From Candidatus Woesearchaeota archaeon (lineage in GTDB: Archaea > Nanobdellota > Nanobdellia > Woesearchaeales > UBA583): 64,000 nt of DNA. The stretch is from assembly GCA_023898345.1 (NCBI GenBank), contig CP060218.1, forward strand, positions 413,510-477,509, given 5' to 3'. A program made the translations under genes and the position numbers. Below are positions 1 to 37,329 of the stretch, one piece after another. The first letter of the stretch is position 1; the number at the start of each line of letters is the position of its first letter. The notes beneath the pieces were generated by a model. That model worked only from the letters and a program-made list of their open reading frames with translations. It ran no database searches and was not told where the DNA came from.

Positions 1-1316
1 ATACCTATTCGTTAAAACAAGGAATAGAGGATGGGTTTCTTGCTCCGTACAAAGTCGTTAGAATTACTTTTGACAAAGATATTGAATGGCGCCCTTATGC
101 TTCACAAACAGATAAATATGGCGAGATTATTCCGGACAAGGAGTATAGTGGCAGGGATTATGATAAAGAGATTGTCCTAGAAAAGAGGACAGAACTTGTT
201 GCTAAGAAAATTAGTTCTTACCTTAAACAGACAGATAGATTTGACAAGACCATTGTTTTTTGTAATGATATTGAACATGCTCAGAGAATGACTCTTGCTT
301 TAATGAATGAAAATAGTGATTTGGTTGCTAAAAATAGAAAGTATGTTATGCAAATTACAGGAGACAATAATGAGGGAAAAAAGGAACTTGATAACTTTAT
401 TGACCCTGAAAGCTCTTATCCTGTTATTGCTACAAGCTCAAAGCTTATGACAACAGGAGTTGATGCCCAAACCTGTAAACTTATTGTGCTTGATTCAAAT
501 ATTCAATCCATGACAGAGTTTAAGCAAATTATTGGAAGGGGGACGAGAATTAATGAGGATTTTGGAAAGTATTCTTTTACGATTCTTGATTTTAGGGGCG
601 TTACTCGTTTGTTTGCAGACCCAGACTTTGACGGAGAACCTATAAAAGTATGTGAAAATAGTGAGGATTCAGCTTTTGAGAAAGTAGAAGAAATCTTGGA
701 TGTGTACGGAGAAGAAAAGAAAGAGGGAGCAGCTTTTATCAAAAGAAAAGAGAAAATGAGGAAATATTATGTTCACTCTGTCCCTGTTGAAGTTTCTTCT
801 GAAAGAGTGCAATATTTTGGGAGTGATGGAAAACTCATTACTGAAAGTTTGAGAGATTATACTAAAAAAAATATTCGAAAGGAGTACAGAGACTTAGATG
901 ATTTTTTGAAGAAATGGCAAAGCGTGAAGAAGGCTGCAATAATAAAGGAACTTGAACAACAGGGAATTTTCTTTCATGAACTTGAGCGTGAAGTGGGTAA
1001 GGAGTTGGATCCTTTTGATTTAGTTTGTCATATTGCCTACGACCAAAAAGCATTGACGCGAAAGGAAAGGGCAAGTAATGTTAAGAAAAGAAATTACTTT
1101 GGAAAATACGGGGAAAAGGCGAGAAAGGTCATTGAAGTCTTATTGGATAAATATGCTGACACGGGGATTGAAAATATTGAAAGTTTGGATATACTAAAAG
1201 TCAAACCTCTTTCAGATATTGGCTCTCCTTTGGAGATTGTTAAATTATTTGGAGGGAAAAAAGCTTACTTGCAAGTTATTAATGAACTTGAAAAACACTT
1301 GTATAGTGAGGTATGA
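1..1316 (+). CDS. hsdR: Type I restriction enzyme R subunit (HsdR), C-terminal part; the gene runs off the left edge of the window
   Basis: The open frame reads from position 3 without a stop. The upstream translation ...TYSLKQGIEDGFLAPYKVVRITFD... is the classic HsdR helicase C-terminal motif. The listed ORF 288..1316 is the in-frame continuation. Stop TGA 1314-1316 overlaps the next ATG (ATGA). Confidence 0.85.
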   Translation, partial: TYSLKQGIEDGFLAPYKVVRITFDKDIEWRPYASQTDKYGEIIPDKEYSGRDYDKEIVLEKRTELVAKKISSYLKQTDRFDKTIVFCNDIEHAQRMTLALMNENSDLVAKNRKYVMQITGDNNEGKKELDNFIDPESSYPVIATSSKLMTTGVDAQTCKLIVLDSNIQSMTEFKQIIGRGTRINEDFGKYSFTILDFRGVTRLFADPDFDGEPIKVCENSEDSAFEKVEEILDVYGEEKKEGAAFIKRKEKMRKYYVHSVPVEVSSERVQYFGSDGKLITESLRDYTKKNIRKEYRDLDDFLKKWQSVKKAAIIKELEQQGIFFHELEREVGKELDPFDLVCHIAYDQKALTRKERASNVKKRNYFGKYGEKARKVIEVLLDKYADTGIENIESLDILKVKPLSDIGSPLEIVKLFGGKKAYLQVINELEKHLYSEV

Positions 1317-2680
1317 AGAGAATGAGTCTTACACTGAATGCACTGAAAAGAATTGCCAAAATTCATGAGGGTCAAACTTTGGAGTTTAAAGAGAATCTTT
1401 CTAAAGAAATAAAAAAGGAGATTTGTGCTTTTGCAAATTCTCAAGGTGGAAAGATTTATCTGGGAATAACAGACAGTGAAGAATTAAAATCTCAGAATAT
1501 AACAAATACATACCTTTCTCAATTAGACGATTTTATTTCTCAATTAACTCCTAAATTAGACTCTATTACATACGAAATCATTGAAAACAACTTTGTCGTT
1601 GTTGACGTTCCTGAGGGTGAGCTAAGAAATAAACCGTATTCTATTGACAATAAATTTTATATTCGAAAGGGCGCAAGTTCGCAAACATTAACAAGGGAAG
1701 AAATTAAATTTTACTTTCAGGAAGGGAGGGAATTAGCTTTTGATGAAAGAGTACATCAGAAGTTTAGCTTTGAAAAGGGCTTTGACACTCATGCGTATGA
1801 ACTTTTTTGCCAAAAATCCAGAATAGATGAGAAAGAGTTTGACAAAAAACAACTTTTAGAAAATTTAAAAATAACTCGTGATGGAAGGTTTACGAATGCA
1901 GGCGTTTTGTTATTTGCAAAGAATATCACGGATTTTTTTATTGATTTTCAAATTCGATGTGCCATTTTCAAAGGAAAAACAAAAGCCAATATTATTGATA
2001 GTAAGGAATTCAATTCAAATCTTATAGAAAATATTGAAGGGACCCTTATTTTTTTCAAAAGAAACTTGCGGAATAAATTTGTTATTGAAGGTTTGCAAAG
2101 GAGGGAAGAACTTGAGATTCCTGAAGAAGTGTTGCGAGAGGCTTTGTTAAATGCTATTTGTCATAGGGATTATAATATTATAAATGCCATTCATATTTAT
2201 GTGTTTGATGACAGAATTGAGATTGTAAGTCCCGGGGGATTAGTTAAGGAACTTAGTATAGAGAATATGAGGAGCAAGAGTATTTCAAGAAATCCCTTTC
2301 TTTTTTCTTTATTGAAAAGGGCAAATTATGTTGAGAAGTATGGTTCTGGAATTAACAGAATTGAAAAGCTATTAGAGGAGAGGGGATTAGAGAAAGCATC
2401 TTACGAGAATCTTCCTTTATTTTTTACGATTAGTTTTAAGAGAGAGCCATTAAATGAGCCATTAAATGAGCCATTAAATGAGCCATTAAATGAGCGCCAT
2501 AAAAAGATTCTGCGATTTGTTGAAAGAAAACCTAATGCCAAAAGAGAGGAACTTTATGACATTTCTGGCGTGTCTTTGGCAACTTTAAAAAGAGATATTG
2601 AATTCTTGATACATAAAAATCTTATTGAGAGAAGGGGCTCAAAGAAAACGGGAGGGTATTTTGTAAAGAATGACCATTAG
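1313..2680 (+). CDS. AlbA_2/AAA_4 (Schlafen-like) N-domain plus HATPase_c_4 C-domain protein (RecG-like putative regulator) with a C-terminal winged HTH
   Basis: The N-terminus (ALKRIAKIHEGQTLEFKENLS...CAFANSQGGKIYLGI) resembles the divergent AAA_4 domain. HRDYN...IEIVSPGGL resembles HATPase_c_4. Contains an (EPLN)x4 repeat. Translationally coupled to hsdR and hsdM. Confidence 0.6.
   Translation: MKRMSLTLNALKRIAKIHEGQTLEFKENLSKEIKKEICAFANSQGGKIYLGITDSEELKSQNITNTYLSQLDDFISQLTPKLDSITYEIIENNFVVVDVPEGELRNKPYSIDNKFYIRKGASSQTLTREEIKFYFQEGRELAFDERVHQKFSFEKGFDTHAYELFCQKSRIDEKEFDKKQLLENLKITRDGRFTNAGVLLFAKNITDFFIDFQIRCAIFKGKTKANIIDSKEFNSNLIENIEGTLIFFKRNLRNKFVIEGLQRREELEIPEEVLREALLNAICHRDYNIINAIHIYVFDDRIEIVSPGGLVKELSIENMRSKSISRNPFLFSLLKRANYVEKYGSGINRIEKLLEERGLEKASYENLPLFFTISFKREPLNEPLNEPLNEPLNERHKKILRFVERKPNAKREELYDISGVSLATLKRDIEFLIHKNLIERRGSKKTGGYFVKNDH
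2444..2491 (+). repeat. Perfect 12-bp tandem repeat GAGCCATTAAAT x4 (plus one degenerate unit), in frame, encoding EPLNEPLNEPLNEPLN
   Basis: Read directly in the sequence at 2444-2491; the following unit gagcgccataaa matches 9/12. Confidence 0.9.
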
Positions 2681-4091
2681 CACTACAAATATTAAGGGTA
2701 TTCAGGACATTATGCGTAAGGATGCAGGTGTTGATGGAGATGCACAAAGAATTTCACAATTGGTGTGGATGATATTTCTCAAGGTTTTTGATGATAAGGA
2801 ACAGGAATGGGAACTTGATGACACTTATACGTCGCCAATTCCTCAGAGACTGCGCTGGCGTAGCTGGGCATCTGATAAGGAGGGAATAACTGGTGATGAG
2901 CTTTTGGATTTTATTAACAATGACTTGTTCAAGACCTTAAAAGAGTTGCCAGTTTCTCATGAAGAGAGAAAAGCTGTCTTGGTTAAGGAAGTTTTTGAGG
3001 ATGCTTATAATTATATGAAATCCGGAACTTTGTTGAGGCAAATTGTGAATGAAATTAATAAGATTGATTTTACAAGTTCTGAGGATAGACATACTTTCAA
3101 TGATATTTACGAAACTATTTTGAAAGATTTGCAAAGTGCAGGAAATGCTGGAGAGTTCTATACTCCAAGAGCTGTTACTCAATTTATTGTTGACATGGTA
3201 AATCCTCTTCTTGGTGAAAGAGTTATGGATCCTGCTTGTGGGACTGGAGGATTTTTGATTTGTGCTTTGGAGCATTTGAGAAAGCAAGAGAAGTCTGTCG
3301 AAGATAGAAAAACATGGCAAAGTTCTCTTTTAGGCATTGAAAAGAAGCAACTTCCTCACATGCTTTGTACGACAAATATGATTTTGCATGATGTGGAAAT
3401 TCCTCGTATTAGGCACGACAATTCTTTGTCAAGACCGATGAGGAGTATTGGACAGTCTGAAAGAGTCGAGGTTGTTGTTATGAATCCTCCTTTTGGTGGT
3501 GTTGAGGAAGATGGTATCTTGGCAAATTTTCCTCTGGCATTGAGAACAAAGGAGACTGCAGACTTATTTCTTGTTCTTGTCATGCAAATCTTAAAGGATA
3601 GGGGAAGATGTGGTTTAGTTTTACCTGATGGTTTCTTATTTGGCGAGGGCGTTAAGACTCGAATAAAGGAGAAATTACTCGATGAGTTTAATTTGCATAC
3701 TATCGTCAGATTGCCCAATGGAGTATTTAATCCATATACTGGAATTACTACAAACTTATTGTTTTTTGAAAAAGGGACGCCAACAAAGGAGATTTGGTAT
3801 TTTGAGCATCCTTATCCTTCTGGTGTCAAGAGCTACAATAAGACTAGACCAATTACTATCAAAGAGTTTGATTTGGAGAAGAGTTGGTGGGCTAATCGCG
3901 TTGAGAATGAACACGCTTGGAAGGTTAGCATTGATGACATTAGAGCGCGTAATTATAACTTGGACATCAAAAATCCCACGAAAGCTGTTGAGGAAGTGCA
4001 ACTCAGTTCAAAGGAGTTGCTTGAACTGCTTGACAAAAGCATTGCTAAGAGCAAAGAAACTTTGGATAAGATTAAGGTGGAGTTGATGTGA
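2670..4091 (+). CDS. hsdM: Type I R-M N6-adenine DNA methyltransferase subunit (HsdM)
   Basis: HsdM N-domain, AdoMet motif DPACGTGGFL, catalytic NPPFG, and GEFYTPR. Stop TGA 4089-4091 is immediately followed by ATG 4092. Confidence 0.9.
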   Translation: MTISTTNIKGIQDIMRKDAGVDGDAQRISQLVWMIFLKVFDDKEQEWELDDTYTSPIPQRLRWRSWASDKEGITGDELLDFINNDLFKTLKELPVSHEERKAVLVKEVFEDAYNYMKSGTLLRQIVNEINKIDFTSSEDRHTFNDIYETILKDLQSAGNAGEFYTPRAVTQFIVDMVNPLLGERVMDPACGTGGFLICALEHLRKQEKSVEDRKTWQSSLLGIEKKQLPHMLCTTNMILHDVEIPRIRHDNSLSRPMRSIGQSERVEVVVMNPPFGGVEEDGILANFPLALRTKETADLFLVLVMQILKDRGRCGLVLPDGFLFGEGVKTRIKEKLLDEFNLHTIVRLPNGVFNPYTGITTNLLFFEKGTPTKEIWYFEHPYPSGVKSYNKTRPITIKEFDLEKSWWANRVENEHAWKVSIDDIRARNYNLDIKNPTKAVEEVQLSSKELLELLDKSIAKSKETLDKIKVELM

Positions 4092-4724
4092 ATGGGGAAT
4101 TCTAGATATATGTATGTTGATGAAAGTGGAGATTTGGGCTTTGGTAAAAAGGGGAGTTCTAGATATTTTGTCATTTCTGCGTTGCTTATTGATGATTGTA
4201 AAGAACCTGAAAGATTAGTAAAAAACATGCGTAGAAATAAGTTCAAAAAGGAATTAAGAAAATCAAATGAACTTAAAGCAAATAACTCATCAGATAAACT
4301 TAGACACTATGTTTTAAGTAAAATCAATGAGTTTAAAGGAATTCAGATCTTTCATATTGTTTTAGATAAAACTGAGGTTAGAAGTCCTTACTTGAAAGAT
4401 AATAAAAATAAGCTTTACAATTTTGTTGCTGGAAAACTTGCTAAAAACATTTTAATGAAAGATGCGGATTTACTTGTCATTATAGATAAATCCAAAGGGA
4501 AAAAGATTTTAAGAATAGATTTTGATAGATATTTTAGAACTAAATTACTTGAAGGAGAAACGGCCGGAGACTGTACAATTTCTCATGGTTACTCTCACAA
4601 TTTTGCGGGGTTACAAATGGTTGACTTTCTTGCATGGTCTGTTTTTAGAAAATATGAATATAAAGATTTAGACTTTAACAAGAATATAACTGTAGAACAA
4701 GAGGTGTTTTCCGTATGGTTTTAG
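4092..4724 (+). CDS. DUF3800-like protein (N-terminal YVDESGDLG motif)
   Basis: 210 aa; the N-terminal MYVDESGDLGF...RYFVISALLI fits the DUF3800 signature from memory. Lies between hsdM and hsdS. Confidence 0.5.
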   Translation: MGNSRYMYVDESGDLGFGKKGSSRYFVISALLIDDCKEPERLVKNMRRNKFKKELRKSNELKANNSSDKLRHYVLSKINEFKGIQIFHIVLDKTEVRSPYLKDNKNKLYNFVAGKLAKNILMKDADLLVIIDKSKGKKILRIDFDRYFRTKLLEGETAGDCTISHGYSHNFAGLQMVDFLAWSVFRKYEYKDLDFNKNITVEQEVFSVWF

Positions 4725-4987
4725 AACTAGACACAGTACCATTAAGCACTGAAGCGAACACCTCAAGGTATTCTGACTTAATGGTTTTACCTGATAAGAA
4801 TGGTAGTAAAAGGTTATATAAAAACGTTTTTATTTCCTCCTTAGTGAGGTCTTGGGAGAAAATGGGCAGTAAAATCAAAATTATTGCACAGAAATTCTTA
4901 GAAGATTCAGGAAGTTCTATTAAGAAGATGTACACTACTCAAGGCAACATCAAAGAATTATTAAAGAAAGTAAAAGGTGAATTTTAA
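4715..4987 (+). CDS. Small hypothetical protein (90 aa), Lys-rich
   Basis: ORF overlaps the DUF3800 stop and the KAP start by about 10 nt each, which is operon-like coupling. No recognisable domain. Confidence 0.25.
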   Translation: MVLELDTVPLSTEANTSRYSDLMVLPDKNGSKRLYKNVFISSLVRSWEKMGSKIKIIAQKFLEDSGSSIKKMYTTQGNIKELLKKVKGEF

Positions 4988-6233
4988 AATGATAACAAAA
5001 ATTCCAAAGACAAAAGACGTGTTAGAAAATTTCACATTTGAAAAAAATGATAAATTACAGAGGGAAACAATTGCAAATAATTTCAATAGGTGTTTTGAGG
5101 GAACTGAAGGAAATTTAATTTTAGCGATTAACGGAGAGTGGGGACAAGGGAAAAGCGCATTTTTGCATATGTGGAAAAACCAGTTACGCTTTAAGGAAAA
5201 GGAAGTTATTTATCTTAATTTATGGGAAGAAGATTTTTATAAAGAACCTTTTTTATCTATTCTTAATACCTTTAGTAACAATTTTTTTGATATTAAAAAA
5301 GATTTAATAAGTATTAGTAAAAAAATACTTAAACATATCTTAGAAAAAAAAACAGGTCTTAATATAGATGAATTTTTCGACAAATCTGTTTATGATGAAA
5401 TAAATAATGATAAGATAAAATTAAAAGAGATACTTAGAAAAAAAATTGGAGAGAGAACAGATAACTTTCCACTAGTTGTTATGATTGATGAATTAGATAG
5501 ATGCAATCCGTTATATGCAATAGAATTCTTAGAGGTTATCAAACATTTTTTTGATATAGATAAAATCGTCTTTGTACTTGCATTGGATATTCAAGAATTA
5601 GAACATTCAATTAAGAAAGTGTATGGTGAGAATCTAAATACACAGAGATATCTTAGAAAAATTATTGATGTTATTTATGATTTACCAAATCCCTCTCTTG
5701 AACTTTATTTTGACCATATCTTACAAAAATATGGGGATAAATATACTGACTTGTCAGAAAATGGAAATGTTTTTCGTTGTTGTATTTTGAAAAATGCTAA
5801 AAATTTAAGAGATATAGAAAAATTTTTCATAAGATATAATTTATCGTTCAAGGAAAAAAAAAATCAAAGATTACAAAGCCTAAGTTTTAATGAAAATCAG
5901 AAGTATTTCATTAGAACTTATTTATTACTGTTAACTCAATTAAATAAGGAACTTTACTCTGAGATAAGAGAAAAATCACTTACAAAAGAGAAAATCAAGC
6001 TATTTTTTGAATTTTTGGGAATTGAAAAAAAAAATGTTCCAGGAGATTTTATTAGAGCAATTTTTGAATTACTTACTTGGGGAAAAACTCCCTCTCTTTC
6101 TAATCAGACTATAAAGGGGGAAATAGAGACATTAGGATATAATACTTCTTATATTGGTGAAACTATAGGCGGAATCTCCTATGATCCAAAAACTGATTTT
6201 TTACTAATTGATTTTTTGCAAGAAATTGACTAA
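4977..6233 (+). CDS. KAP family P-loop NTPase
   Basis: Walker A is GEWGQGKSAF (the GxWGxGKS KAP signature); Walker B is VVMIDELDRC. Contains three poly(A)9-10 tracts. Confidence 0.75.
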   Translation: MNFKMITKIPKTKDVLENFTFEKNDKLQRETIANNFNRCFEGTEGNLILAINGEWGQGKSAFLHMWKNQLRFKEKEVIYLNLWEEDFYKEPFLSILNTFSNNFFDIKKDLISISKKILKHILEKKTGLNIDEFFDKSVYDEINNDKIKLKEILRKKIGERTDNFPLVVMIDELDRCNPLYAIEFLEVIKHFFDIDKIVFVLALDIQELEHSIKKVYGENLNTQRYLRKIIDVIYDLPNPSLELYFDHILQKYGDKYTDLSENGNVFRCCILKNAKNLRDIEKFFIRYNLSFKEKKNQRLQSLSFNENQKYFIRTYLLLLTQLNKELYSEIREKSLTKEKIKLFFEFLGIEKKNVPGDFIRAIFELLTWGKTPSLSNQTIKGEIETLGYNTSYIGETIGGISYDPKTDFLLIDFLQEID

Positions 6234-6234
6234 A

Positions 6235-7572
6235 ATGGTTTGGAATAAAGTTAAAATTAGTACTTTTCTAAAGGAAAGAAATAACAGATTTAAGCCAGAG
6301 GATGCTAATAAATTAGGATTAAAAAGAATTGAAAAAATAGATTTTTCTGGAAATCTCTATATTGTTGAAAAACAAACAAATACGGGAATGATCCTAGTTA
6401 GAAGTGGGGATTTGGTGATCTCAGGGATTAATGTGGAAAAAGGAGCATTAGCAGTTTATGGTGGTCAGGAAGATGTTTTAGCAACTATACATTATTCTTC
6501 ATATGAATATGATAAAAATAAAATTGACATAGAATATCTAAAGTGGTTTCTTAAAAGTAATGTTTTTAGAAGTATTTTATTAGAAGAAGTAGGGGGAGGA
6601 ATTAAAACTGAATTAAAACCTAAAAGATTTTTATCTCTTGAAGTTTACTTGCCTGACTTACAAACTCAGATTGAAATGAGAAACAAGATACTAGCTGTAG
6701 AACAAGAAATAGGAGAACTTCAAATTCGTATAAAACAAGAAGAAGATTATCTTACTAAACTAAAAGAAGCAATTTTACAAGAAGCAGTACAAGGGAAATT
6801 AGTAGAACAAAATTCTAATGATGAACCTGCGCAGATATTACTTGAAAAAATTAGAACAGAAAAAGAACAATTAATCAAAGAAAAAAAATTTCAAAAACCT
6901 AAAGAAAAAGGAATAATCTTAGAAAATGAATTTAATCTTGAAATTCCAAAGACTTGGACTTTAGCAAAGTTAGTAGATTTATGTTTTGTCACAAAATTAG
7001 CAGGTTTTGAATATACTAAATATGTTAATTTGAAAGATGTTGGTGAAGTTCCAGTTATTAGAGCTCAAAATGTTAAAAAAAGATATATTGATAAAACTAA
7101 TTTGAAATATATTGATTTGAAAACTTCTGAATTGTTACATAGATGTGCTTTAACAAAAGAATCATTATTAGTTACTTTCATTGGAGCAGGAATTGGGGAT
7201 GTTGCTTTATTTAATGAAGATAAAAGATGGCACCTTGCTCCAAATGTTGCTAAGTTAGAACCATTCAATAATTTTGAATTAAAAATATTGCCTGACTATT
7301 TATTATATTATTTATTATCTGAAACTGGAAATAAAGAAATATTTAAATCATCAAAATCAACAGCACAGCCAAGTTTATCAATGGGTACAATTAGGAATAT
7401 TATTATTCCACTTCCGCCATTGGCAGAACAGCAGCGTATTGTCAGGAAAGTTGAGGAACTTATGGCCTATTGTGATGTACTTGAGCAAGAAATACGCAAG
7501 TCCAAACAACAAGCAGAACAATTAATGCAATCAGTGTTGAAGGAAGCATTTGAACAAAAGAAAGGGCTATAA
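6235..7572 (+). CDS. hsdS: Type I R-M specificity subunit (HsdS) with two target-recognition domains and a central coiled coil
   Basis: Has the typical HsdS architecture and the conserved C-terminal LPPLAEQQRIV...L motif. Start taken at ATG 6235, just after the KAP stop 6231-6233. The ORF track begins at 6208 in frame. Confidence 0.8.
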   Translation: MVWNKVKISTFLKERNNRFKPEDANKLGLKRIEKIDFSGNLYIVEKQTNTGMILVRSGDLVISGINVEKGALAVYGGQEDVLATIHYSSYEYDKNKIDIEYLKWFLKSNVFRSILLEEVGGGIKTELKPKRFLSLEVYLPDLQTQIEMRNKILAVEQEIGELQIRIKQEEDYLTKLKEAILQEAVQGKLVEQNSNDEPAQILLEKIRTEKEQLIKEKKFQKPKEKGIILENEFNLEIPKTWTLAKLVDLCFVTKLAGFEYTKYVNLKDVGEVPVIRAQNVKKRYIDKTNLKYIDLKTSELLHRCALTKESLLVTFIGAGIGDVALFNEDKRWHLAPNVAKLEPFNNFELKILPDYLLYYLLSETGNKEIFKSSKSTAQPSLSMGTIRNIIIPLPPLAEQQRIVRKVEELMAYCDVLEQEIRKSKQQAEQLMQSVLKEAFEQKKGL

Positions 7573-7677: not shown

Positions 7678-7818
7678 AGTAAAGAAATCGCTAAAATATG
7701 CCTATCCCAATCGGAGCAGAGCTCCGGAGCATTACGGCAATTTTCAAGACGCGATTTCTAACTCCCAGCTGGGTGGTCGCAGCAGAGCTGCGGGGTATAT
7801 AATACCCAGCTAAGGAAT
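7678..7818. repeat. Copy A of a ~140-bp structured repeat. Its inverted near-identical partner is at 36411..36549.
   Basis: Reverse complement of 36411-36549 matches 7678-7818 with about 4 differences. Contains two similar hairpins, CGGAGC-AGA-GCTCCG and CGCAGC-AGA-GCTGCG, and CAGCTG/GAGCTC palindromes. Confidence 0.85.
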
Positions 7819-7944: not shown

Positions 7945-8607
7945 ATGGCATTAAAACAGAAAAGAACGTTGGAGTTGTTCAAACACAGGTTCGGATTTGA
8001 ATGGTTAGCCTTTTTTTTTCTTATCTTGCAGTTTTTTGTTCTTTTGGGAAACTTGCCTTCTCCAAGGTATGATGTTTTTTTCTGGTTCTGCAATCATACT
8101 CCTCTTATCTTTGCTCTTGCTTTTGCTTTTCGTAAAATTAATCTTATCAAGGGACTTATTTGTGTGGGGTTTCTTCCTCAATTTATTTGGACTCTTGACT
8201 TTCTTTTACGACTTTTTTTTGACTATAATTTTTTTAGAATAACTGCGTATGTCTTTGAAAACTCACTAGGGTATTGGGTTTTGCTTCCTATTGGCATTCA
8301 CATGTTTTCAACAAATCTTGCTCTTCTTGCAACATACAAGTTTCCGACAGAGAATAAAGTTTTGACGAAAGCTGCTTTGTACATTGCTCTTTTGTATGTA
8401 ACGACTATTATTCTTACGCTTCCTGAACGTAATGTTAATTGGCTTCAAGGGATTGGAAAAGAGGGTTTTCTCATAAGTTTTACAGGTTATCAACTTGTCT
8501 GGCCTTTCTTTGTTTTCTTTGTCCTTGTGCTTCCAACATATTTTTTTCAGAAATATTTGTATGAACATTATGAACAGAACAAGCTAAAAAAAAGAACAAA
8601 AAACTAA
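7945..8607 (+). CDS. Polytopic membrane protein, function unknown
   Basis: 220 aa with multiple hydrophobic segments. First gene inside repeat copy A. Confidence 0.5.
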   Translation: MALKQKRTLELFKHRFGFEWLAFFFLILQFFVLLGNLPSPRYDVFFWFCNHTPLIFALAFAFRKINLIKGLICVGFLPQFIWTLDFLLRLFFDYNFFRITAYVFENSLGYWVLLPIGIHMFSTNLALLATYKFPTENKVLTKAALYIALLYVTTIILTLPERNVNWLQGIGKEGFLISFTGYQLVWPFFVFFVLVLPTYFFQKYLYEHYEQNKLKKRTKN

Positions 8608-8608
8608 G

Positions 8609-8983
8609 TTGAAAATAACTAAAAAAATTATGAATTGTTTCTTTACTCCTATCGGCACGTTCTTAAACAAGTTCTTCTTTTCTATTTTCATGGAAAAGGA
8701 TTCTCTTCTTTCTACGTATTATGATTTGGAACTTGATAAACTTGTTGAAGAAGTAAATGCAAAGAATTTTTCAAAAGTCGTTCTTCAATTTCCTGATGGC
8801 TTGAAGTATTATGCAAGAGAAGTTTTAGATGTTTTGGAAGCGCGTACAAAGGCTCAGTTCTTTGTTTACTTTGGTACTTGTTTTGGCGCTTGTGATGTTC
8901 CTCTTCACCTTAAGGAACTTGATTTTGATCTTTGTGTGCAGTGGGGTCATAGTGTGTATGTGAAGACAAAGGGAATGTGGTAG
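8609..8983 (+). CDS. dph2: Diphthamide synthase Dph2, N-terminal domain fragment (domain 1). The real start is probably the internal Met near 8690.
   Basis: VVLQFPDGLKYYAREV...FGACDV...LCVQWGHSVY aligns with the archaeal Dph2 N-terminus, up to the HLGHSYM region. Confidence 0.6.
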   Translation: MKITKKIMNCFFTPIGTFLNKFFFSIFMEKDSLLSTYYDLELDKLVEEVNAKNFSKVVLQFPDGLKYYAREVLDVLEARTKAQFFVYFGTCFGACDVPLHLKELDFDLCVQWGHSVYVKTKGMW

Positions 8984-9007
8984 CTTTTTTATGTAAAAGC
9001 TTTCTCA

Positions 9008-9622
9008 TTAATTAATGCCTAATAATAGTAAATTTAATCCAAAGGTAATTATTTCGGTGATTACATTTGTAATGAATGCCCAAAGCATGACAACTCCTAT
9101 TAGTTGCCAATTTCCTGTATTGAATTCTCTTTTGAATAAATAGAGTGATGTATTGATTTCTTTAAGGCCATAATAAATCATTGGGAGGAAAAGTAGGTAT
9201 GCGAGTGATGCATAGGTTGTTGAAACGAAACTTAGTGCCATTGCTAAAAGACTAATTCCTGCATAGGCTGTCAATAATGGTAAGTATAGATAAATCAAAA
9301 CGGTATAAAATTCAGTTACGGATAGGGTGGTTTTGAAAAACAATTTTGTGAAATAATATCCTCCAAATAAGAACAGGATGCCTAGTATTATATTTGGAAT
9401 AAGGAGAATTAAAAAGGTTAGTAATATGTTTAAACTCTTTTCAGTTGGAACAAGGTTATATAAGGTTACATATGAGGAAATTGATAGAACCAAGGTTAAA
9501 AAGAGATGTAAAAAAAGCATGGGGACCCATTCAAGTTTACTTAATTTTTCTTCAAATTTAGTAACTTGTTCGTCTGTCATTTTCCATTTGTATAAAGTTA
9601 TGGAGTCGAATAAATTAACCAT
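9008..9622 (-). CDS. Membrane protein (204 aa) encoded on the opposite strand between the two dph2 pieces
   Basis: Highly hydrophobic multi-TM ORF. Confidence 0.45.
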   Translation of the reverse strand: MVNLFDSITLYKWKMTDEQVTKFEEKLSKLEWVPMLFLHLFLTLVLSISSYVTLYNLVPTEKSLNILLTFLILLIPNIILGILFLFGGYYFTKLFFKTTLSVTEFYTVLIYLYLPLLTAYAGISLLAMALSFVSTTYASLAYLLFLPMIYYGLKEINTSLYLFKREFNTGNWQLIGVVMLWAFITNVITEIITFGLNLLLLGIN

Positions 9623-9689
9623 TGTAGGGAGTTTAGCAATTTATCTTTTGAAATAAATTCTGTGCTCTTTTTGAGTAGTTAGGAAGGCA

Positions 9690-10487
9690 TTGAATAGTGG
9701 TGTGGTTTACGTGTGTGTCTCTCTTTTTATCGTACAAGTTTATAAGTTTTTTGAGCTTTCCTTTTTTATGAACTTGCGTTTTCTCAAAGCTTCTATTGAA
9801 ATTGATTTTCAAATTCCCGTCGATTTTACGGACTTACTCAAAACTACTTTTGAAAAAGGAAACACAAAAAATCTGGCTTTGTTCAGCGCTGTGCAGTTTA
9901 GGAAGCATCACGATGAAGTTTCTGGAATCTTAAAGGAACACGGTTTTACTTCGCAAACTTCACAACCTTTTCGGACAAGTATTGAGGGGCAACTTTTGGG
10001 TTGTGATTCTCATAAGGCTGCTTTGAAAATGGATTTAAGCGAGATTGATGGCTTTGTGTATATTGGTGATGGCTACTTTCATCCTCAGGCACTTCTTCTT
10101 GCTCAGGAATTCGAGGATGAGATTAAACCTGTTCTTATTCTTAATCCTGTTCAAAATATGTGTGAGATTCTCTCTCGTGAACATATTGAAAAATATCTTT
10201 CGAAAAAGAAAGCAACTTTGGCGGCTTTTCATTTAGCAGACCAGGTTGGTGTTTTTGTAACGACGAAATGGGGTCAGGAATATCTGCAATCTGCACTTAA
10301 GCTCAAAGAAATGTATCCTCAAAAGACTTTTTCTTATTTTGTTGGAGACAATTTTCTTGATGCTGAACAAGAGAACTTTCCCTTTGTCCAGTGCTGGGTC
10401 AATACTGCCTGTCCGCGAATTGGGCAAGATGATATTTTACGGCACAAAAAGCCGACGGTGAACCTACGTGATGTTTGGCTGGAGTGA
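9690..10487 (+). CDS. dph2: Dph2 C-terminal fragment (domains 2-3). The real start is probably an internal Met near 9768.
   Basis: QLLGCDSH, FVYIGDGYFHP and WVNTACPRIGQDD correspond to Dph2 domains 2 and 3 with their cluster cysteines. Confidence 0.6.
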   Translation: MNSGVVYVCVSLFIVQVYKFFELSFFMNLRFLKASIEIDFQIPVDFTDLLKTTFEKGNTKNLALFSAVQFRKHHDEVSGILKEHGFTSQTSQPFRTSIEGQLLGCDSHKAALKMDLSEIDGFVYIGDGYFHPQALLLAQEFEDEIKPVLILNPVQNMCEILSREHIEKYLSKKKATLAAFHLADQVGVFVTTKWGQEYLQSALKLKEMYPQKTFSYFVGDNFLDAEQENFPFVQCWVNTACPRIGQDDILRHKKPTVNLRDVWLE

Positions 10488-10538
10488 AGTTTTTGGAGCA
10501 TAGCTTTTTTAAAGGCATCTCTAATTGCACTCTTTGGA

Positions 10539-11957
10539 ATGGAAAGTTTTACAAAAATTGTAGCGACTTTGGGACCTGCCTGTGATACGGTAGAGGGAAT
10601 TGAAAAGCTTAGAAAGGCTGGCTTGAATGTTGCAAGGCTTAATTTTTCTCATGGGAGTCATGATTACTTTAGAAAGGTTATTGCAAATATTAGAAAAGTC
10701 GATACTAATATTGCAATTCTTCTTGACACAAAGGGTCCGGAAATTCGAACGGGGGATTATGAAAGCGGTTCTTTGACACTTGACTTACACGAAAAAATTC
10801 TTCTTTCAAATAAGCCAATGAAGGAAAAGCATATTCTTATTCAGTATCCGCATTTGCTTACGGTTAGTGAAGGGACAGAAATTCTTATTGACGACGGACT
10901 TGTTGAGGTTAGGGTTCTTAAAGTAGAGAAAGACCACCTTGTCGCACGTGTTGAAAATTCTGCAGTCCTTGGTTCGCGTAAAACTGTTACTATTCGTAAC
11001 CACCAGACAAAGATTCCTTTTTTGAGTCAGAAAGACAAGGAAGATATTGAATTTGGAATTGAGCAAAATTTAGATTTTATTGCAGCATCTTTTGTTAGGG
11101 AAGTTGAGGACCTTGAGCAGATTGAAGCGATTTTGAAAAAGCACAATTCAAGTATTAAGATTATTTCTAAGATTGAACATCCGCGTGCTATTGAAAATCT
11201 TGACAAGATTATTGAGAAGTCTTTTGGGATTATGGTTGCTCGTGGTGATTTGGGTGTTGAACTTCCTGCTGAAAAAGTTCCTGAGTACCAGAGTTATATT
11301 ATTGAGAAATGTAATTTTTTTGGTAAGCCTGTTATTGTTGCAACTCAAATGCTTGAGAGCATGAAATCTGAGCCGCGTCCGACAAGGGCAGAGGTTGCTG
11401 ATGTTGCTAATGCTGTTCGTGAAGGTGCTGATGCTGTTATGCTTAGTGGAGAGACGGCAAATGGAAAGCATCCGCACAAAGCTGTACAAACTATGAACCG
11501 TATTGCTCATGAGTACCAAGATAAAATTCGAGTTAACTTAAGGGATCTTATGGAGAAAACTGCAAAAAAAAGTGAAACGAGTTCTTTGTATATGACAAAG
11601 GCAGCGTACGAAGCAACTCTTCATCTTCCTATTAAGGCAATCTTTGCTCCGACGGAAAGTGGTTTTACAGCAAGAAATATTTCTCGTTTCAGGCCTCAGT
11701 GTCCTATTTATGCGATAACTTCTGATGAAAAGGTTCACAGACAACTTCAACTTTCTTGGGGTGTCTTTCCTCTTATGAATGATTCTAAAGCAAAAAGCCA
11801 CGATGCTTGTGTAAACAAAACTGTTAAGGCATGCTTTGAAAAGAAGGAGCTTAAGAATGACGATAGTTTGCTTGTTCTCTCTGGACACGTCTCTGGAAAG
11901 AGTGGTATGACAAACATGCTTGAGATTTACAGGACAGAAGATATTTTGAAAAGATAA
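10539..11957 (+). CDS. pyk: Pyruvate kinase
   Basis: The N-terminus TKIVATLGPACDT...NVARLNFSHGSH and the MVARGDLG motif. Confidence 0.9.
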   Translation: MESFTKIVATLGPACDTVEGIEKLRKAGLNVARLNFSHGSHDYFRKVIANIRKVDTNIAILLDTKGPEIRTGDYESGSLTLDLHEKILLSNKPMKEKHILIQYPHLLTVSEGTEILIDDGLVEVRVLKVEKDHLVARVENSAVLGSRKTVTIRNHQTKIPFLSQKDKEDIEFGIEQNLDFIAASFVREVEDLEQIEAILKKHNSSIKIISKIEHPRAIENLDKIIEKSFGIMVARGDLGVELPAEKVPEYQSYIIEKCNFFGKPVIVATQMLESMKSEPRPTRAEVADVANAVREGADAVMLSGETANGKHPHKAVQTMNRIAHEYQDKIRVNLRDLMEKTAKKSETSSLYMTKAAYEATLHLPIKAIFAPTESGFTARNISRFRPQCPIYAITSDEKVHRQLQLSWGVFPLMNDSKAKSHDACVNKTVKACFEKKELKNDDSLLVLSGHVSGKSGMTNMLEIYRTEDILKR

Positions 11958-25896: not shown

Positions 25897-26882
25897 GTCA
25901 GTTGCATAAATCCTCCCTATCTGTGAGATTTTGCAACCACACAAAACACTGCACCATTCTAAACACACTTTGAAGTTCATACTTCAAAGATCTACAAGCA
26001 TCCCCAAACCTTCGTTTAAATGCACTAAAACTACGTTCTACTGCAGTTCTGAGTCCATAATCAGAAAAATATTTCCATAAGTCAAAATCAATTTGTTGCA
26101 AAGTAAATTCTCTGTATCTCAAAGGTTGAGCCAAAATTTTTGGTTTAGCATTTTTGCGAATGGGAATTACGGTTTGAATCTGATTTTTGTAACAAAAATC
26201 AAATAATTCTATTGCGTCATAGCCACCATCCCCAAATATTTTTTTTGGAAAAATGCTTATTTCCTTTAAATTCCTTAAAGCAATTTTTGCATCTCCTCCC
26301 CCTTTTTCAGTGGTGACATCAAAAAAAACAACTTCATGTCTTTCATTAATACCAAAATGAATTTTGGTAAAACTTCTCCTTGTTTTCCATTTATAGGCCA
26401 TGTATCCTGACCGTTTTACTTGGCTCATTCCCGTGCTATCAACAATCAAATACTTATATCTCTTATTTGTAAAATTGTGTTGTTTAACCTCTGCTTTTTG
26501 TACAATTCTACGCCAAAGTGTAGTATAAACAGCAACTCTGGGAAGTTTCAAATAATTGCTTAAAGCAAGAAGGAAGCCTTCTAACTCACGAAATGTGAGT
26601 TGATGAATGAATCTTAGTCTTGAACAAAATTCAATGAAATTTTCGGGATAAATTTCAGGTCTGCCTTTGCAACCTGTTTGAACAGGTTGCCATTCTTGAC
26701 TCAACCAAGAATGCAAAACTATAAATCCTTCGTGAACATATTTATTTCTGTTGTGAGCTTTCATTTAGCGATAAAGTTCTCACAACTTTAGTTCTAAAAG
26801 TTAAGATGTCACTGGGCTTCCAGTCGCAGCAACCTTAGAAATCAAGTAGAAATTTAATTTACAAATGATTTATGCAACTGAC
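25897..26882 (-). mobile_element. IS5-family-like insertion sequence (986 bp) with 16-bp perfect terminal inverted repeats and a ~12-bp flanking direct repeat
   Basis: GTCAGTTGCATAAATC at 25897-25912, and its reverse complement at 26867-26882. TTTGGTATTTTA flanks both ends (25884-25895 and 26883-26894). Confidence 0.65.
25898..26764 (-). CDS. DDE transposase, IS5-family-like
   Basis: DSTG...GDGGYDA...VERSFSAFKRRFG matches the IS5 DDE_Tnp_1 pattern (IDST / DKGYDS / VERxFxxLK). Confidence 0.7.
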   Translation of the reverse strand: MKAHNRNKYVHEGFIVLHSWLSQEWQPVQTGCKGRPEIYPENFIEFCSRLRFIHQLTFRELEGFLLALSNYLKLPRVAVYTTLWRRIVQKAEVKQHNFTNKRYKYLIVDSTGMSQVKRSGYMAYKWKTRRSFTKIHFGINERHEVVFFDVTTEKGGGDAKIALRNLKEISIFPKKIFGDGGYDAIELFDFCYKNQIQTVIPIRKNAKPKILAQPLRYREFTLQQIDFDLWKYFSDYGLRTAVERSFSAFKRRFGDACRSLKYELQSVFRMVQCFVWLQNLTDREDLCN

Positions 26883-29313: not shown

Positions 29314-29732
29314 GCAGAAAAACAAATGGTCTATTCGCAGCAAAGAAGATGCTTATCAAAAGAGCGTTATTCAAGAAAAGAAGAGTGAATCCTCTTGAGA
29401 AGGCAAAGTACGATCCGCTTGAGAATGCAAACCAAGCAAAAGGAATTGTCTTGAACAAAACAGAAAGAGAAGCTAAACAGCCAAACTCTGCTTTGCGTAA
29501 GTGTGTTACAGTCCAGCTTTCTAAGAACGGAAAGTCTATTGTTGCGTTCCTTCCTGGAAATAATGCTTCAAAGTTCGTGAACGAGCACGACGAAGTAATG
29601 GTTGAAGGTATTGGTGGAATTAAAGGAAAATCCAAGGGTGATATTCCGGGAGTGAGATGGAAGGTTATCCAAGTAAATGGTCAGTCGCTCAACGCGCTTA
29701 TCAGAGGAAAACTTGAGAGGGCAAGAAAGTAA
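29310..29732 (+). CDS. rps12: Ribosomal protein uS12 (archaeal/eukaryotic S23 type)
   Basis: [20 protein letters not shown]...VEGIGG. Confidence 0.9.
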
Positions 29733-29733
29733 A

Positions 29734-30339
29734 ATGGTTCAAACTGAAATTAAACTGTACAACAAGTGGACTTTCAATGACGTTGCCGTGACAGACCTTG
29801 GTTTGCAAAACTACATCAACTTGCGACCTATTATTGTCCCAAGAACAAACGGATATTATCACAATACAGCCTTTTACAAAACGAAAATAAATATTGTAGA
29901 AAGGCTCATGAACCGTTTGCAAGTCACAGGACACAAAGGAAGGAAACATTACATTAGTTCGGGACATAATACAGGGAAAGCAAAAAAAATTTCATCTCTT
30001 ATGAAGGAAGTCTTTGAAGAGTTGGAAAAGAAAACAAAGGAAAACCCTATTCAGGTGTTAGTAACTGCGATAGAACATGCAGCACCACGTGAAGAAGTCA
30101 TTACTATTGAGCGTTCAGGAGCAAGGTATGCACAGGCAGTCGACATGTCTCCTCAGAGAAGAGTTGACTTAGTTTTGCGCTATCTTTCACAGGGGGCATC
30201 TCACAAAGCTTTCAATTCTGCAACGTCACTCAAAGAGACATTAGCGGCAGAAATCCTTGACTGTTATCACAGAGGGGACAAAAGTACAGCAATGTCCAAA
30301 AAGAACGAAATTGAGAAGATGGCAGCAGCTGCCAAATAA
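29734..30339 (+). CDS. rps7: Ribosomal protein uS7 (S5e type)
   Basis: Start taken at the ATG immediately after the S12 stop. VLVTAIEHAAPREEV...AQAVDMSPQRRVDL. Confidence 0.9.
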   Translation: MVQTEIKLYNKWTFNDVAVTDLGLQNYINLRPIIVPRTNGYYHNTAFYKTKINIVERLMNRLQVTGHKGRKHYISSGHNTGKAKKISSLMKEVFEELEKKTKENPIQVLVTAIEHAAPREEVITIERSGARYAQAVDMSPQRRVDLVLRYLSQGASHKAFNSATSLKETLAAEILDCYHRGDKSTAMSKKNEIEKMAAAAK

Positions 30340-36410: not shown

Positions 36411-36549
36411 ATTCCTTAGCTGGGTATTATACCCCGCAGCTCTGCTGCGACCACTCAGCTGGGAGTTAGAAATCGCGTCTTGAAAATTGCCGTAATGCCC
36501 CGGAGCTCTGCTCCGATTGGGATAGGCACATTTTAGCGATTTCTTTACT
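36411..36549. repeat. Copy B of the ~140-bp structured repeat, inverted relative to copy A at 7678..7818
   Basis: The reverse complement is about 97% identical to copy A. Confidence 0.85.
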
Positions 36550-36606
36550 TCTTTACTTATCCAATCTTAAAGAAATGTTTATTAACTGGGGTGAGAAATA
36601 ATTTTT

Positions 36607-37329
36607 ATGTCTGCTCCTTTTCTCCGACATAGTCTTTTTGGTGGGTTTGTTTTTCTTAGCTCTTGTTTTTCAGTCTCTGCGGCAAGGTCTGAACAAACCT
36701 TTTATGATTCTCCTTCTTATCTGCCTTATTGTATAATTATTGATAAAGCAGATAGGGAGTTATATTTTTTTGAATGTGATGGTATGGAACATTTGCAAAA
36801 CCTTATTTATAAGAGCCCTATTGTCATTGGTGGAAGAAATAAAGATTATCGTACGGGTAAAAAAAGAAACTTTGAAACACCTGTAGGTAACTTTCAAATT
36901 CAAGCCTATGTTAAAGATGCTAAATGGTTTCCACCTAAATGGGCAAAAGAACATAGGGTAAATGAACGAGGAGAAATTATTGGGGTTGGTGGTGTTTTTG
37001 GTCCTATGTGGATGCCTTTGACTTCTTACGGGACTCCTCTTGATCCTTCTTTTTCTTTTAATCCTGAGGGGTATGGTGGGCTTGCACTTCATGGGACTCG
37101 GGATCAGAGACAGTTTTTGAAGAGGTTCTCGCGTCAGTCTCATGGTTGTATTAGACTTCCTGATGGGGCTCTTTCATTTCTTGAATCTTTTTTTAAAAAA
37201 TATCTTGTTTTATCATCTCCCGAACAGATTCCAAAAGGTGAGAAAGTAGTTTTTTCAAGGGGCGCAATACCTGTTTCTATTAGACATTCTTTTTCTTTGG
37301 AGAGGGTTTTGTCTTCAGCAACCCCATGA
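36607..37329 (+). CDS. L,D-transpeptidase (YkuD) domain protein with signal peptide
   Basis: HGT...SHGCIRLP catalytic motif. Confidence 0.65.
   Translation: MSAPFLRHSLFGGFVFLSSCFSVSAARSEQTFYDSPSYLPYCIIIDKADRELYFFECDGMEHLQNLIYKSPIVIGGRNKDYRTGKKRNFETPVGNFQIQAYVKDAKWFPPKWAKEHRVNERGEIIGVGGVFGPMWMPLTSYGTPLDPSFSFNPEGYGGLALHGTRDQRQFLKRFSRQSHGCIRLPDGALSFLESFFKKYLVLSSPEQIPKGEKVVFSRGAIPVSIRHSFSLERVLSSATP

What the first reader, a model, noticed from the sequence alone, without database searches (positions are those of the whole stretch)
8609..10487. Diphthamide synthase dph2 split into two ORFs with an opposite-strand membrane-protein gene inserted at the domain 1/2 boundary
ORF 8609-8983 matches Dph2 domain 1 up to the conserved GHS(V/Y) motif. 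ORF 9690-10487 matches domains 2 and 3 (LGCDSH, IGDGYFHP, TACPRIGQDD). Only a few residues are missing at the junction. A 204-aa membrane-protein gene on the other strand (9008-9622) lies between them. The three cluster-binding cysteines are distributed across the two pieces. Either this is a functional split gene assembling in trans, as split genes in Nanoarchaeota-like archaea do, or dph2 was recently disrupted. The latter would imply EF-2 lacks diphthamide.
Basis: partly seen in the sequence, partly recalled or inferred. Interest (0 to 1): 0.55.

Follow-up and report, generated by a model that had tools for sequence, protein, structure and literature searches.

The report
Lineage-wide split diphthamide synthase gene
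The diphthamide synthase gene dph2 really is in two pieces here, but this is an old, conserved and already published feature of Woesearchaeota-type DPANN archaea, not a recent gene breakage; only the small membrane-protein gene between the pieces is recent and variable.

Summary
A 97-aa N piece (ATG 8690-8983) and a 239-aa C piece (ATG 9768-10487) together make a complete Dph2. Nothing is missing at the junction, and the three cluster cysteines are spread over both pieces. A 190/204-aa gene for a protein with five predicted membrane helices lies between them on the opposite strand.

The "recent disruption" reading is refuted. All 84 related Woese-/Pace-/Nanoarchaeota loci carry a stand-alone C piece and none is fused. 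Of these, 59 have a separate about 90-aa N gene just upstream, cut at the same position. Database searches return more than 100 clusters of each stand-alone piece. The catalytic residues are invariant.

In most relatives the halves abut or overlap. In 15 of these 59 loci, as in this window, unrelated genes sit between them. Here the inserted gene is a near-orphan, and it is mostly deleted in a sister strain that is 96-98% identical.

Split Dph1/2 in DPANN archaea was reported by Narrowe et al. 2018, reviewed by Dombrowski et al. 2019, and listed for the nanoarchaeote Nst1 by Podar et al. 2013.

Verdict: an ordinary member of a known split-gene family. The small additions are the exact conserved break point and the repeated use of the gap as a site where genes are inserted. 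Assembly of the two pieces in trans is inferred, not demonstrated.

The parts
8690..8983 (+). dph2-N. It encodes a 97-aa stand-alone N-terminal piece of diphthamide synthase Dph2, covering most of domain 1. It carries the invariant cluster cysteine C68 in GACD and ends ...WGHSVYVKTKGMW*. The mechanical ORF starts at TTG 8609, but the likely real start is ATG 8690.
   Evidence: Family matches are. There are 106 homologue clusters, all 69-117 aa and nearly all 92-117 aa. NCBI calls a 97-aa gene. Q33, D36, G37, G66, C68, D69, P71, G86 and H87 are invariant in 36 paired sequences.
9008..9622 (-). Intervening opposite-strand gene. It encodes 204 aa from ATG 9622, or 190 aa from ATG 9580 as NCBI calls it. 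The protein has five predicted transmembrane segments, matches no known family and is a near-orphan.
   Evidence: The ORF is. It has no Pfam or NCBIfam hit. Only 3 homologue clusters exist among 5.8 billion proteins, and the two non-identical ones are not next to dph2 in the sequence held. The gene is largely deleted in sister strain L085.
9768..10487 (+). dph2-C. It encodes a 239-aa stand-alone C-terminal piece of Dph2: the strand 'LRFLKA', a linker helix, then domains 2 and 3. It carries the invariant cluster cysteines C79 (LGCD) and C215 (TACPRI). The mechanical ORF starts at TTG 9690, but the likely real start is ATG 9768.
   Evidence: Family and structure matches are. At least 100 full-length homologue clusters at 39-69% identity are 220-272 aa long, mostly 235-250 aa. 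NCBI calls a 239-aa gene. Invariant residues are listed.
9739..9745 (+). Candidate archaeal TATA box (TTTATAA) centred about 26 nt upstream of ATG 9768. It would give dph2-C its own, probably leaderless, transcript. This is inferred from the sequence only.
   Evidence: Read directly. The stretch 9638-9767 is retained (3 mismatches) in the strain that lacks the membrane gene.
9125..9136 (.). First copy of a 12-nt direct repeat, TTCTCTTTTGAA. Its partner is at 9641-9652 (TTATCTTTTGAA). Together they flank the 516 nt that are absent from sister strain L085, so they are the likely deletion end-points.
   Evidence: The repeat is family D4.
9641..9652 (.). Second copy of the 12-nt direct repeat that flanks the strain-specific deletion.

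Best explanation
This is the normal two-gene form of archaeal diphthamide synthase (Dph2, 2-(3-amino-3-carboxypropyl)histidine synthase) found in Woesearchaeota, Pacearchaeota and other GTDB Nanoarchaeota.

Origin (shown by comparison). One ancient fission cut the gene in the loop after the GH(S/N) motif. It left an N gene of about 90-97 aa that ends in a conserved Trp, and a C gene of about 240 aa that begins M-x-(L/V)-x-F-(L/I). In the ancestral and commonest layout the two genes abut or overlap by a few bases. Later, different lineages acquired unrelated genes in the gap or separated the halves altogether. In this genome the gap holds a recently acquired, strain-variable, opposite-strand gene for a membrane protein that has no evident link to Dph2.

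Mechanism (inferred, not shown). The two polypeptides associate non-covalently. The N-terminal strand of the C piece probably completes the beta-sheet of domain 1. One [4Fe-4S] cluster is then held by Cys68 of the N piece and by Cys79 and Cys215 of the C piece. A dimer of such N-C pairs would replace the usual Dph2 homodimer. This complex would cleave SAM and transfer the 3-amino-3-carboxypropyl group to the target histidine of EF-2. Because the intervening gene is on the other strand, dph2-C must be transcribed from its own promoter, for which a TATA-like box lies at 9739-9745.
For: - Both pieces are Dph2 and complement each other exactly. The concatenate aligns in one stretch to full-length Dph2 representatives of 300-345 aa.
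- None of 84 related loci has a fused gene. In 59 of them a separate N ORF lies upstream on the same strand and ends at the same place.
- Counting this window as well (60 loci), the halves lie -23 to +14 nt apart in 38, 37-127 nt apart in 6, and 277-1806 nt apart in 16.
- The inserted genes belong to at least five unrelated families.
- Stand-alone N proteins form 106 clusters, nearly all 92-117 aa. Stand-alone C proteins form more than 100 clusters, mostly 235-250 aa.
- All three cluster cysteines and the GDGxFHP, KxGQ and NTACPR motifs are invariant across 36 paired sequences at 36-67% identity.
- The least saturated gene pairs give dN/dS of about 0.04-0.2.
- The AF2 model of the concatenate has pLDDT 82, and every significant PDB match (ranks 1-15, E<=1e-15) is an archaeal Dph2.
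- Strain polymorphism of the insert is shown. The insert is a near-orphan.
- Published reports of the split: PMC6143161, PMC6349945 and PMC3655853.
Against: - No protein-level evidence exists that the two pieces are made or that they associate.
- The AF2 model does not place the N piece reliably. It had no alignment depth there, TM-score is only about 0.56 to solved Dph2, and pLDDT is 40-79 in the N part. The strand-complementation interface is therefore inferred from alignment only.
- EF-2, dph5 and dph6 are not in this window. Pathway completeness and the target histidine in this genome could not be checked.
- Synonymous sites are saturated in most comparisons, so dN/dS is weak evidence.
- In 26 loci no N piece was found within the held flanks. 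I could not show that it lies elsewhere in those genomes rather than being lost.
Confidence: 0.85

Rival explanations
1. Recent pseudogenisation. On this view dph2 was broken in this genome, for example by insertion of the membrane-protein gene, the fragments are decaying, and EF-2 lacks diphthamide.
For: A foreign opposite-strand gene lies exactly between the pieces. Loss of diphthamide synthesis is known in other archaea (PMC6143161). dph5, dph6 and EF-2 are not visible in the window.
Against: The same break point occurs in every one of 59 related loci down to 35% identity, and most of those have no gene in between. Both pieces keep all catalytic residues. Both pieces are unchanged at the protein level in a sister strain in which the inserted gene is largely deleted, and dph2 is still split there.
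Confidence: 0.02
2. A single polypeptide is restored after transcription or translation. The routes would be programmed frameshifting or readthrough at the overlapping stop/start, or trans-splicing of RNA or protein.
For: In 13 loci the N stop and the C start overlap by 1-23 nt, for example ...A TGG TAG / ATG GTA. That layout could in principle allow a frameshift product.
Against: In 16 of 60 loci, including this window, 277-1806 nt with other genes separate the halves. In this window and in L059 the intervening gene is on the opposite strand. In 26 further loci the N piece is not within the flanks at all, and in Nst1 the halves are unlinked (PMC3655853). There are no intein motifs and the pieces have no extra length. 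No Rfam RNA element reaches its family threshold in the region.
Confidence: 0.03
3. The intervening membrane protein is a functional partner of split Dph2, for example a tether or an assembly or regulatory factor. On this view the N-insert-C layout is selected rather than accidental.
For: Small multi-helix membrane proteins also sit between the halves in L001 and L002. There they are on the same strand and overlap their neighbours, as in an operon. Gap insertions recur in 16 of 60 loci.
Against: The window's protein has no detectable similarity to those of L001 and L002. Inserted genes in other loci are unrelated soluble proteins, some phosphatase-like. The window's gene has only three homologue clusters, and the two non-identical homologues are not beside dph2 in the sequence held. 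It is dispensable in a 96-98% identical strain. Most relatives have no insert.
Confidence: 0.05

Closest known systems
Split Dph1/2 of DPANN archaea (Narrowe et al. 2018, Genome Biol Evol, PMC6143161; reviewed by Dombrowski et al. 2019, PMC6349945)
   Same: It is the same protein, the same N-terminal-part and C-terminal-part two-gene organisation, and the same lineages: Woese-, Pace-, Parv- and Altiarchaeota are named. The authors concatenated the two products for phylogeny, as was done here.
   Different: In the passages I read, those papers report the split without describing the exact break point, the conserved terminal Trp and overlapping stop/start, the variety of genes inserted between the halves, or polymorphism between strains.
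Split DPH2 of the nanoarchaeote Nst1 (genes Nst 222 and 440; Podar et al. 2013, PMC3655853, Table 1), and the Nanoarchaeum equitans class of split protein genes
   Same: An essential information-processing enzyme is encoded as two separate ORFs in a genome-reduced DPANN archaeon and is presumed to assemble in trans.
   Different: In Nst1 the halves are unlinked, whereas here they remain 784 nt apart. I did not compare the Nst1 break point with this one.
Single-chain archaeal Dph2 homodimer (P. horikoshii 3LZD; Ca. Methanoperedens 6BXM; M. smithii 6Q2D, solved with EF-2)
   Same: The sequence is colinear over the whole length (E 6e-32 to 6bxm_A). It has three cysteines from three regions and a SAM-dependent [4Fe-4S] enzyme fold.
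   Different: Those enzymes are one chain of about 330 aa. Here the chain is interrupted between the residues that align to about positions 90 and 91 of Ca. Methanoperedens Dph2, so the cluster ligands come from two polypeptides.
Eukaryotic Dph1-Dph2 heterodimer
   Same: The enzyme is built from two different gene products of the same family.
   Different: Eukaryotic Dph1 and Dph2 are full-length paralogues that arose by duplication. They are not complementary fragments of one chain.

Membership tests
Dph2 / 2-(3-amino-3-carboxypropyl)histidine synthase (PF01866, TIGR00322, arCOG04112) | Sequence match to the family profile above the curated threshold | tested here: met
   Against PF01866 the N piece scores 43.6 bits and the C piece 111.5 bits (cut-off 33.2). 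Against TIGR00322 they score 75.6 and 108.6 bits (cut-off 35). Each piece alone falls below the full-length equivalog cut-off of TIGR03682 (202.8 bits), as expected for fragments.
Dph2 / 2-(3-amino-3-carboxypropyl)histidine synthase (PF01866, TIGR00322, arCOG04112) | Three conserved cysteines from three different regions that bind one [4Fe-4S] cluster (Cys59, Cys163 and Cys287 in P. horikoshii; numbering recalled from memory) | tested here: met
   C68 (N piece) and C79 and C215 (C piece; C176 and C312 in the concatenate) are invariant in 36 paired sequences. They align to the cysteines in the CFGACD, LGC and TACPR motifs of the solved Dph2 sequences. Cluster binding itself was not tested.
Dph2 / 2-(3-amino-3-carboxypropyl)histidine synthase (PF01866, TIGR00322, arCOG04112) | Complete three-domain fold | tested here: inconclusive
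   Full colinear sequence coverage of 6bxm_A residues 4-304. For the AF2 model of the concatenate, every significant Foldseek match is Dph2 over about 330 columns. However, TM-score is only 0.52-0.58 and the N part has low confidence, so the relative placement of domain 1 is not established.
Dph2 / 2-(3-amino-3-carboxypropyl)histidine synthase (PF01866, TIGR00322, arCOG04112) | Catalytic activity on the target histidine of EF-2, with dph5 and dph6 present for the later steps | not testable with these tools
   EF-2, dph5 and dph6 are not encoded in the 64-kb window, and the rest of the genome could not be fetched. The literature reports Dph5 in Woesearchaeota (PMC6143161).
Split Dph1/2 of DPANN archaea (Narrowe et al. 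2018) | Two separate genes encode the N-terminal and C-terminal parts, in a DPANN genome | tested here: met
   There are separate ORFs with their own stop and start. The source genome is Candidatus Woesearchaeota, GCA_020637525.1. All 80 related genome loci come from Woese-, Pace- or Nanoarchaeota MAGs; some are mislabelled in their record titles.
Split Dph1/2 of DPANN archaea (Narrowe et al. 2018) | The split is shared by relatives, that is, inherited rather than private to this genome | tested here: met
   No fused gene in 84 loci. The break position is identical in 59 loci.
Split Dph1/2 of DPANN archaea (Narrowe et al. 2018) | The two products assemble into an active enzyme | not testable with these tools
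   As far as I could find, this is untested anywhere. It is inferred from conservation only.

The most novel reading that the evidence does not exclude
The gap between dph2-N and dph2-C may be a lineage-wide hotspot where new genes, often small membrane proteins, are repeatedly captured and lost. If so, having two separately transcribed halves would let these archaea regulate diphthamide synthase assembly, and so EF-2 modification, independently of transcription of either half. The split would then be functional rather than a neutral by-product of genome reduction.
Probability: 0.1. Interest if true: 0.45.

Novelty: already known. Interest (0 to 1): 0.2.

Why it matters
It matters mainly for annotation and genome-quality work. 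Dph2 is used as a single-copy marker, and a split gene can be scored as fragmented, duplicated or a pseudogene; Narrowe et al. already warned about this.

The clade-wide identical break point makes a clean natural example of a radical-SAM-type Fe-S enzyme whose cluster ligands sit on two polypeptides. That could interest enzymologists who study Dph2 assembly.

It does not imply loss of diphthamide, and it opens no long-standing question.

Tried and rejected
- A mixed alignment of the concatenate with separate N and C homologues was misaligned by MAFFT, which placed the first 93-114 residues of the C homologues (mostly 104-113) on the N-part columns. I discarded it.
- The single-sequence AF2 model was useless (pLDDT 39).
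- The model built with C-only depth is good for the C part but not for the N-C interface. I therefore make no claim from it about strand complementation.
- dN/dS across loci is mostly saturated, with pS of 0.5-0.6. The window versus the sister strain is uninformative: 2 synonymous and 0 other changes in N, and zero changes across 9750-11250.
- One literature search for the P. horikoshii Dph2 domain boundaries returned nothing relevant.
- Rfam and the promoter/terminator scans of the region gave nothing significant. The promoter scan uses a bacterial consensus and is not appropriate for an archaeon.
- I tested whether the window's membrane protein is an inverted copy of the membrane proteins between the halves in L001 and L002. 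There is no similarity.
- The contexts of the two distant homologues of the membrane protein show no dph2 neighbour in the sequence held.
Full report
**1. The observation**

The three ORFs exist as described.
- ORF 8609-8983 (+) matches the start of the Dph2 family: PF01866 positions 1-61 of 302 (E 3e-11) and TIGR00322 positions 1-84 of 320 (E 4e-21).
- ORF 9690-10487 (+) matches the rest: PF01866 positions 70-284 (E 7e-32) and TIGR00322 positions 96-315.
- ORF 9008-9622 (-) encodes a hydrophobic protein with five predicted transmembrane segments and no Pfam or NCBIfam match.

The mechanical ORFs start at upstream TTG codons. The lengths of homologues and the NCBI gene calls for the same sequence indicate that the real starts are ATG 8690 (97 aa, MEKDSLLSTYYDLEL...) and ATG 9768 (239 aa, MNLRFLKAS...).

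**2. Nothing is missing at the junction**

The concatenated 97+239 aa sequence aligns in one colinear stretch to solved Dph2 chains:
- query 7-329 to 6bxm_A 4-304, E 6e-32;
- query 9-330 to 6q2d_A 5-310;
- query 12-333 to 3lzc_A 40-344.

Around the junction, "GHSvyvktkgmw|MNLRFLKASIEID" pairs with "GHAg----mgeyENVVFIEARSNID". An alignment with 13 full-length Dph2 representatives gives the same picture.

The break therefore falls in the loop after the GH(S/A/N) motif. The next beta-strand (LRFLKA here, VVFIEA in Ca. Methanoperedens) belongs to the C piece. By alignment that strand and a following helix precede the first strand of domain 2 (NLALFSAVQ). "A few residues missing" is wrong: there are about four extra residues.

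The cluster cysteines are C68 in the N piece (GACD) and C79 (LGCD) and C215 (TACPRI) in the C piece, so they are indeed divided between the two products.

**3. It is not an artefact**

The 100%-identical N piece occurs on 15 contigs.
- Three independent Logan assemblies (SRR14234113, SRR17907852, SRR26387399) reproduce the N - opposite-strand gene - C arrangement at 99.8-100% identity over 3-5 kb.
- So does GCA_020637525.1 (JACJVU010000001.1, Candidatus Woesearchaeota), which is probably the source of the window.

**4. The split is ancient and conserved**

- A search with the C piece returned 197 proteins. The listed full-length ones, at 39-69% identity, are 220-272 aa and mostly 235-250 aa.
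- A search with the N piece returned 106 proteins, nearly all 92-117 aa.
- A scan of one genome per GTDB species gave 590 relatives. The best 80 loci all come from Woese-, Pace- or Nanoarchaeota MAGs; a few carry mislabelled "Methanosarcinales" TPA titles.

With four loci from contig look-ups, this makes 84 related loci.
- None has a fused gene.
- In 59 a separate N ORF lies upstream on the same strand.
- In the other 25 no N piece was found even with a profile HMM. About eleven of these have a full 10 kb on both sides, so there the halves are unlinked, as in Nst1, or the N piece has been lost.

The break point is the same everywhere. N pieces end ...(W/F)GH(S/N)x(F/Y)xKxxxW*, where the final Trp is at least 90% conserved. 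C pieces start M-x-(L/V/I)-x-F-(L/I)-x-A.

Counting the window (60 loci), the distance from the N stop to the C start is:

| Distance | Loci |
|---|---|
| -23 to +14 nt (13 of these overlap) | 38 |
| 37-127 nt | 6 |
| 277-1806 nt | 16 |

Across 36 paired sequences at 36-67% identity these residues are invariant: Q33, D36, G37, G66, C68, D69, P71, G86, H87, M98 (the C-piece start), Q172, L174, G175, C176, G197, G199, F201, H202, P203, G258, K264, G266, Q267, F288, W307, N309, C312, P313, R314 and N329.

An exhaustive search of 1.84 billion representatives found 1464 family members. The top 150 are bimodal: about 70 are C-only proteins (200-279 aa, matching query positions from 98-190 to about 333) and 71 are full-length (300-379 aa, matching query about 10-332 in one stretch at 27-35% identity).

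dN/dS is mostly unusable because synonymous sites are saturated. The least saturated pairs give 0.04-0.2.

**5. The intervening gene is a late, variable passenger**

Where the gap is occupied, the inserted genes differ:
- a conserved membrane protein in L001 and L002 (48% identical to each other; no similarity to the window's protein);
- a family of about 240 aa in L019, L046, L060 and L066;
- proteins resembling low-molecular-weight phosphatases in L026 and L044;
- a family beginning "MGLVDKLTELD" in L040, L049 and L052;
- an opposite-strand 321-aa ORF in L059.

The window's protein has only three homologue clusters among 5.8 billion proteins. One is its own sequence, annotated as hypothetical, 190 aa. 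The other two are 48-49% identical and are not beside dph2 in the sequence held.

A sister strain (GCA_002505525.1 and SRR1171179; 96-98.5% identical in the flanks) has dph2-N and dph2-C only 262 nt apart. Its spacer keeps a remnant, about 70% identical, of the 3' end of the membrane gene. It lacks 516 nt that in the window are bounded by a 12-nt direct repeat at 9125-9136 and 9641-9652. The gene is therefore dispensable and turns over at strain level, while dph2 stays split and unchanged at the protein level.

Synteny with SRP54 downstream is shared with L001 and L002.

**6. How it most likely works**

Shown: two intact, conserved genes that jointly encode every part of Dph2, and an opposite-strand gene that rules out a simple N-to-C operon here.

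Inferred:
- dph2-C has its own promoter. A TTTATAA box at 9739-9745 is centred 26 nt before ATG 9768. It lies within the 130 nt that are retained (3 mismatches) in the deletion strain.
- A weaker CTTAAA box at 8662-8667 precedes ATG 8690.
- The products associate non-covalently, share one [4Fe-4S] cluster across the interface, dimerise like single-chain Dph2, and carry out the SAM-dependent ACP transfer to EF-2.

The AF2 model of the concatenate has pLDDT 82: above 90 for most of the C part and 40-79 for the N part, which had no alignment depth. All 15 of its significant PDB matches (E<=1e-15) are archaeal Dph2, but TM-score is only about 0.56. It therefore cannot be used to describe the N-C interface.

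**7. Comparison with what is known**

The phenomenon is already published.
- Narrowe et al. [quoted passage not shown] They also warn against using it as a completeness marker.
- Dombrowski et al. 2019 (PMC6349945) list Parv-, Pace-, Woese- and Altiarchaeota.
- Podar et al. 2013 (PMC3655853, Table 1) list split DPH2 in the nanoarchaeote Nst1.

The window is a member of that class. What this analysis adds is modest: the exact, clade-wide break point with a conserved terminal Trp and frequent stop/start overlap; the repeated occupation of the gap by unrelated genes; and presence/absence polymorphism of the insert between near-identical strains.

**8. What could not be tested**

EF-2, dph5 and dph6 are not in the window. 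All ORFs of 150 aa or more that were scanned against Pfam lack them. The ribosomal S7 gene at 29677-30339 is followed by a proteasome subunit, not EF-2.

**9. Verdict**

- Observation: confirmed.
- "Functional split gene": supported by strong comparative evidence, though trans-assembly is still inferred.
- "Recent disruption" and "EF-2 lacks diphthamide": not supported.
- Novelty: already known.
- Interest: low.

Noticed in passing
window 7679-7807 (+) and about 36412-36550 (-): Two copies, about 97% identical, of a relatively GC-rich element of about 130 nt. It folds into two strong hairpins (z = -4.3 and -4.6). It is absent from the first site in sister strain L085, so it was recently inserted or lost. 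No Rfam family matches at threshold. It looks like a MITE or a small structured RNA.
   Followed up: partly
window 42632-44776 (-): A single 714-aa ORF fuses phosphoglycerate kinase (PF00162, residues 7-388) to a PfkB-family sugar kinase (PF00294, residues 433-703). This is an unusual fusion of glycolytic enzymes.
   Followed up: no
window 288-7572 (+): Type I restriction-modification genes (EcoEI R C-terminal domain, HsdM, HsdS) are interleaved with a Schlafen/AlbA_2-HATPase protein, a DUF3800 protein and a KAP-family NTPase. The stretch looks like a defence island immediately upstream of the dph2 locus.
   Followed up: no
window 9750-11250 versus L085: There are zero nucleotide differences between the two strains across dph2-C and most of the pyruvate kinase gene. 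From 11500 onward divergence rises to about 5-10%. This mosaic suggests recent recombination between strains.
   Followed up: partly
window 25898-26764 (-) and 41193-42167 (-): Two DDE-family transposase genes (PF01609), indicating active mobile elements in this small genome.
   Followed up: no
window 44852-47065 (-), 37315-40383 (-), 47920-49506 (+): Large ORFs of 737, 1022 and 528 aa with no Pfam match at all.
   Followed up: no
window 36607-37329 (+): A YkuD-type L,D-transpeptidase domain protein (PF03734) in an archaeon. This is a family associated with bacterial peptidoglycan, so it may have been acquired horizontally.
   Followed up: no
L001 4001-5004; L002 4435-5004: In two relatives, conserved small multi-helix membrane proteins (48% identical to each other) lie between dph2-N and dph2-C. 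They are on the same strand and their stop and start codons overlap those of their neighbours, as in a tight operon. They are unrelated to the window's insert.
   Followed up: partly
window 7945-8607 (+): A 220-aa protein with five predicted membrane helices and no family match lies directly upstream of dph2-N (1-nt gap to the mechanical ORF). This neighbour is conserved in all near-identical strains.
   Followed up: no
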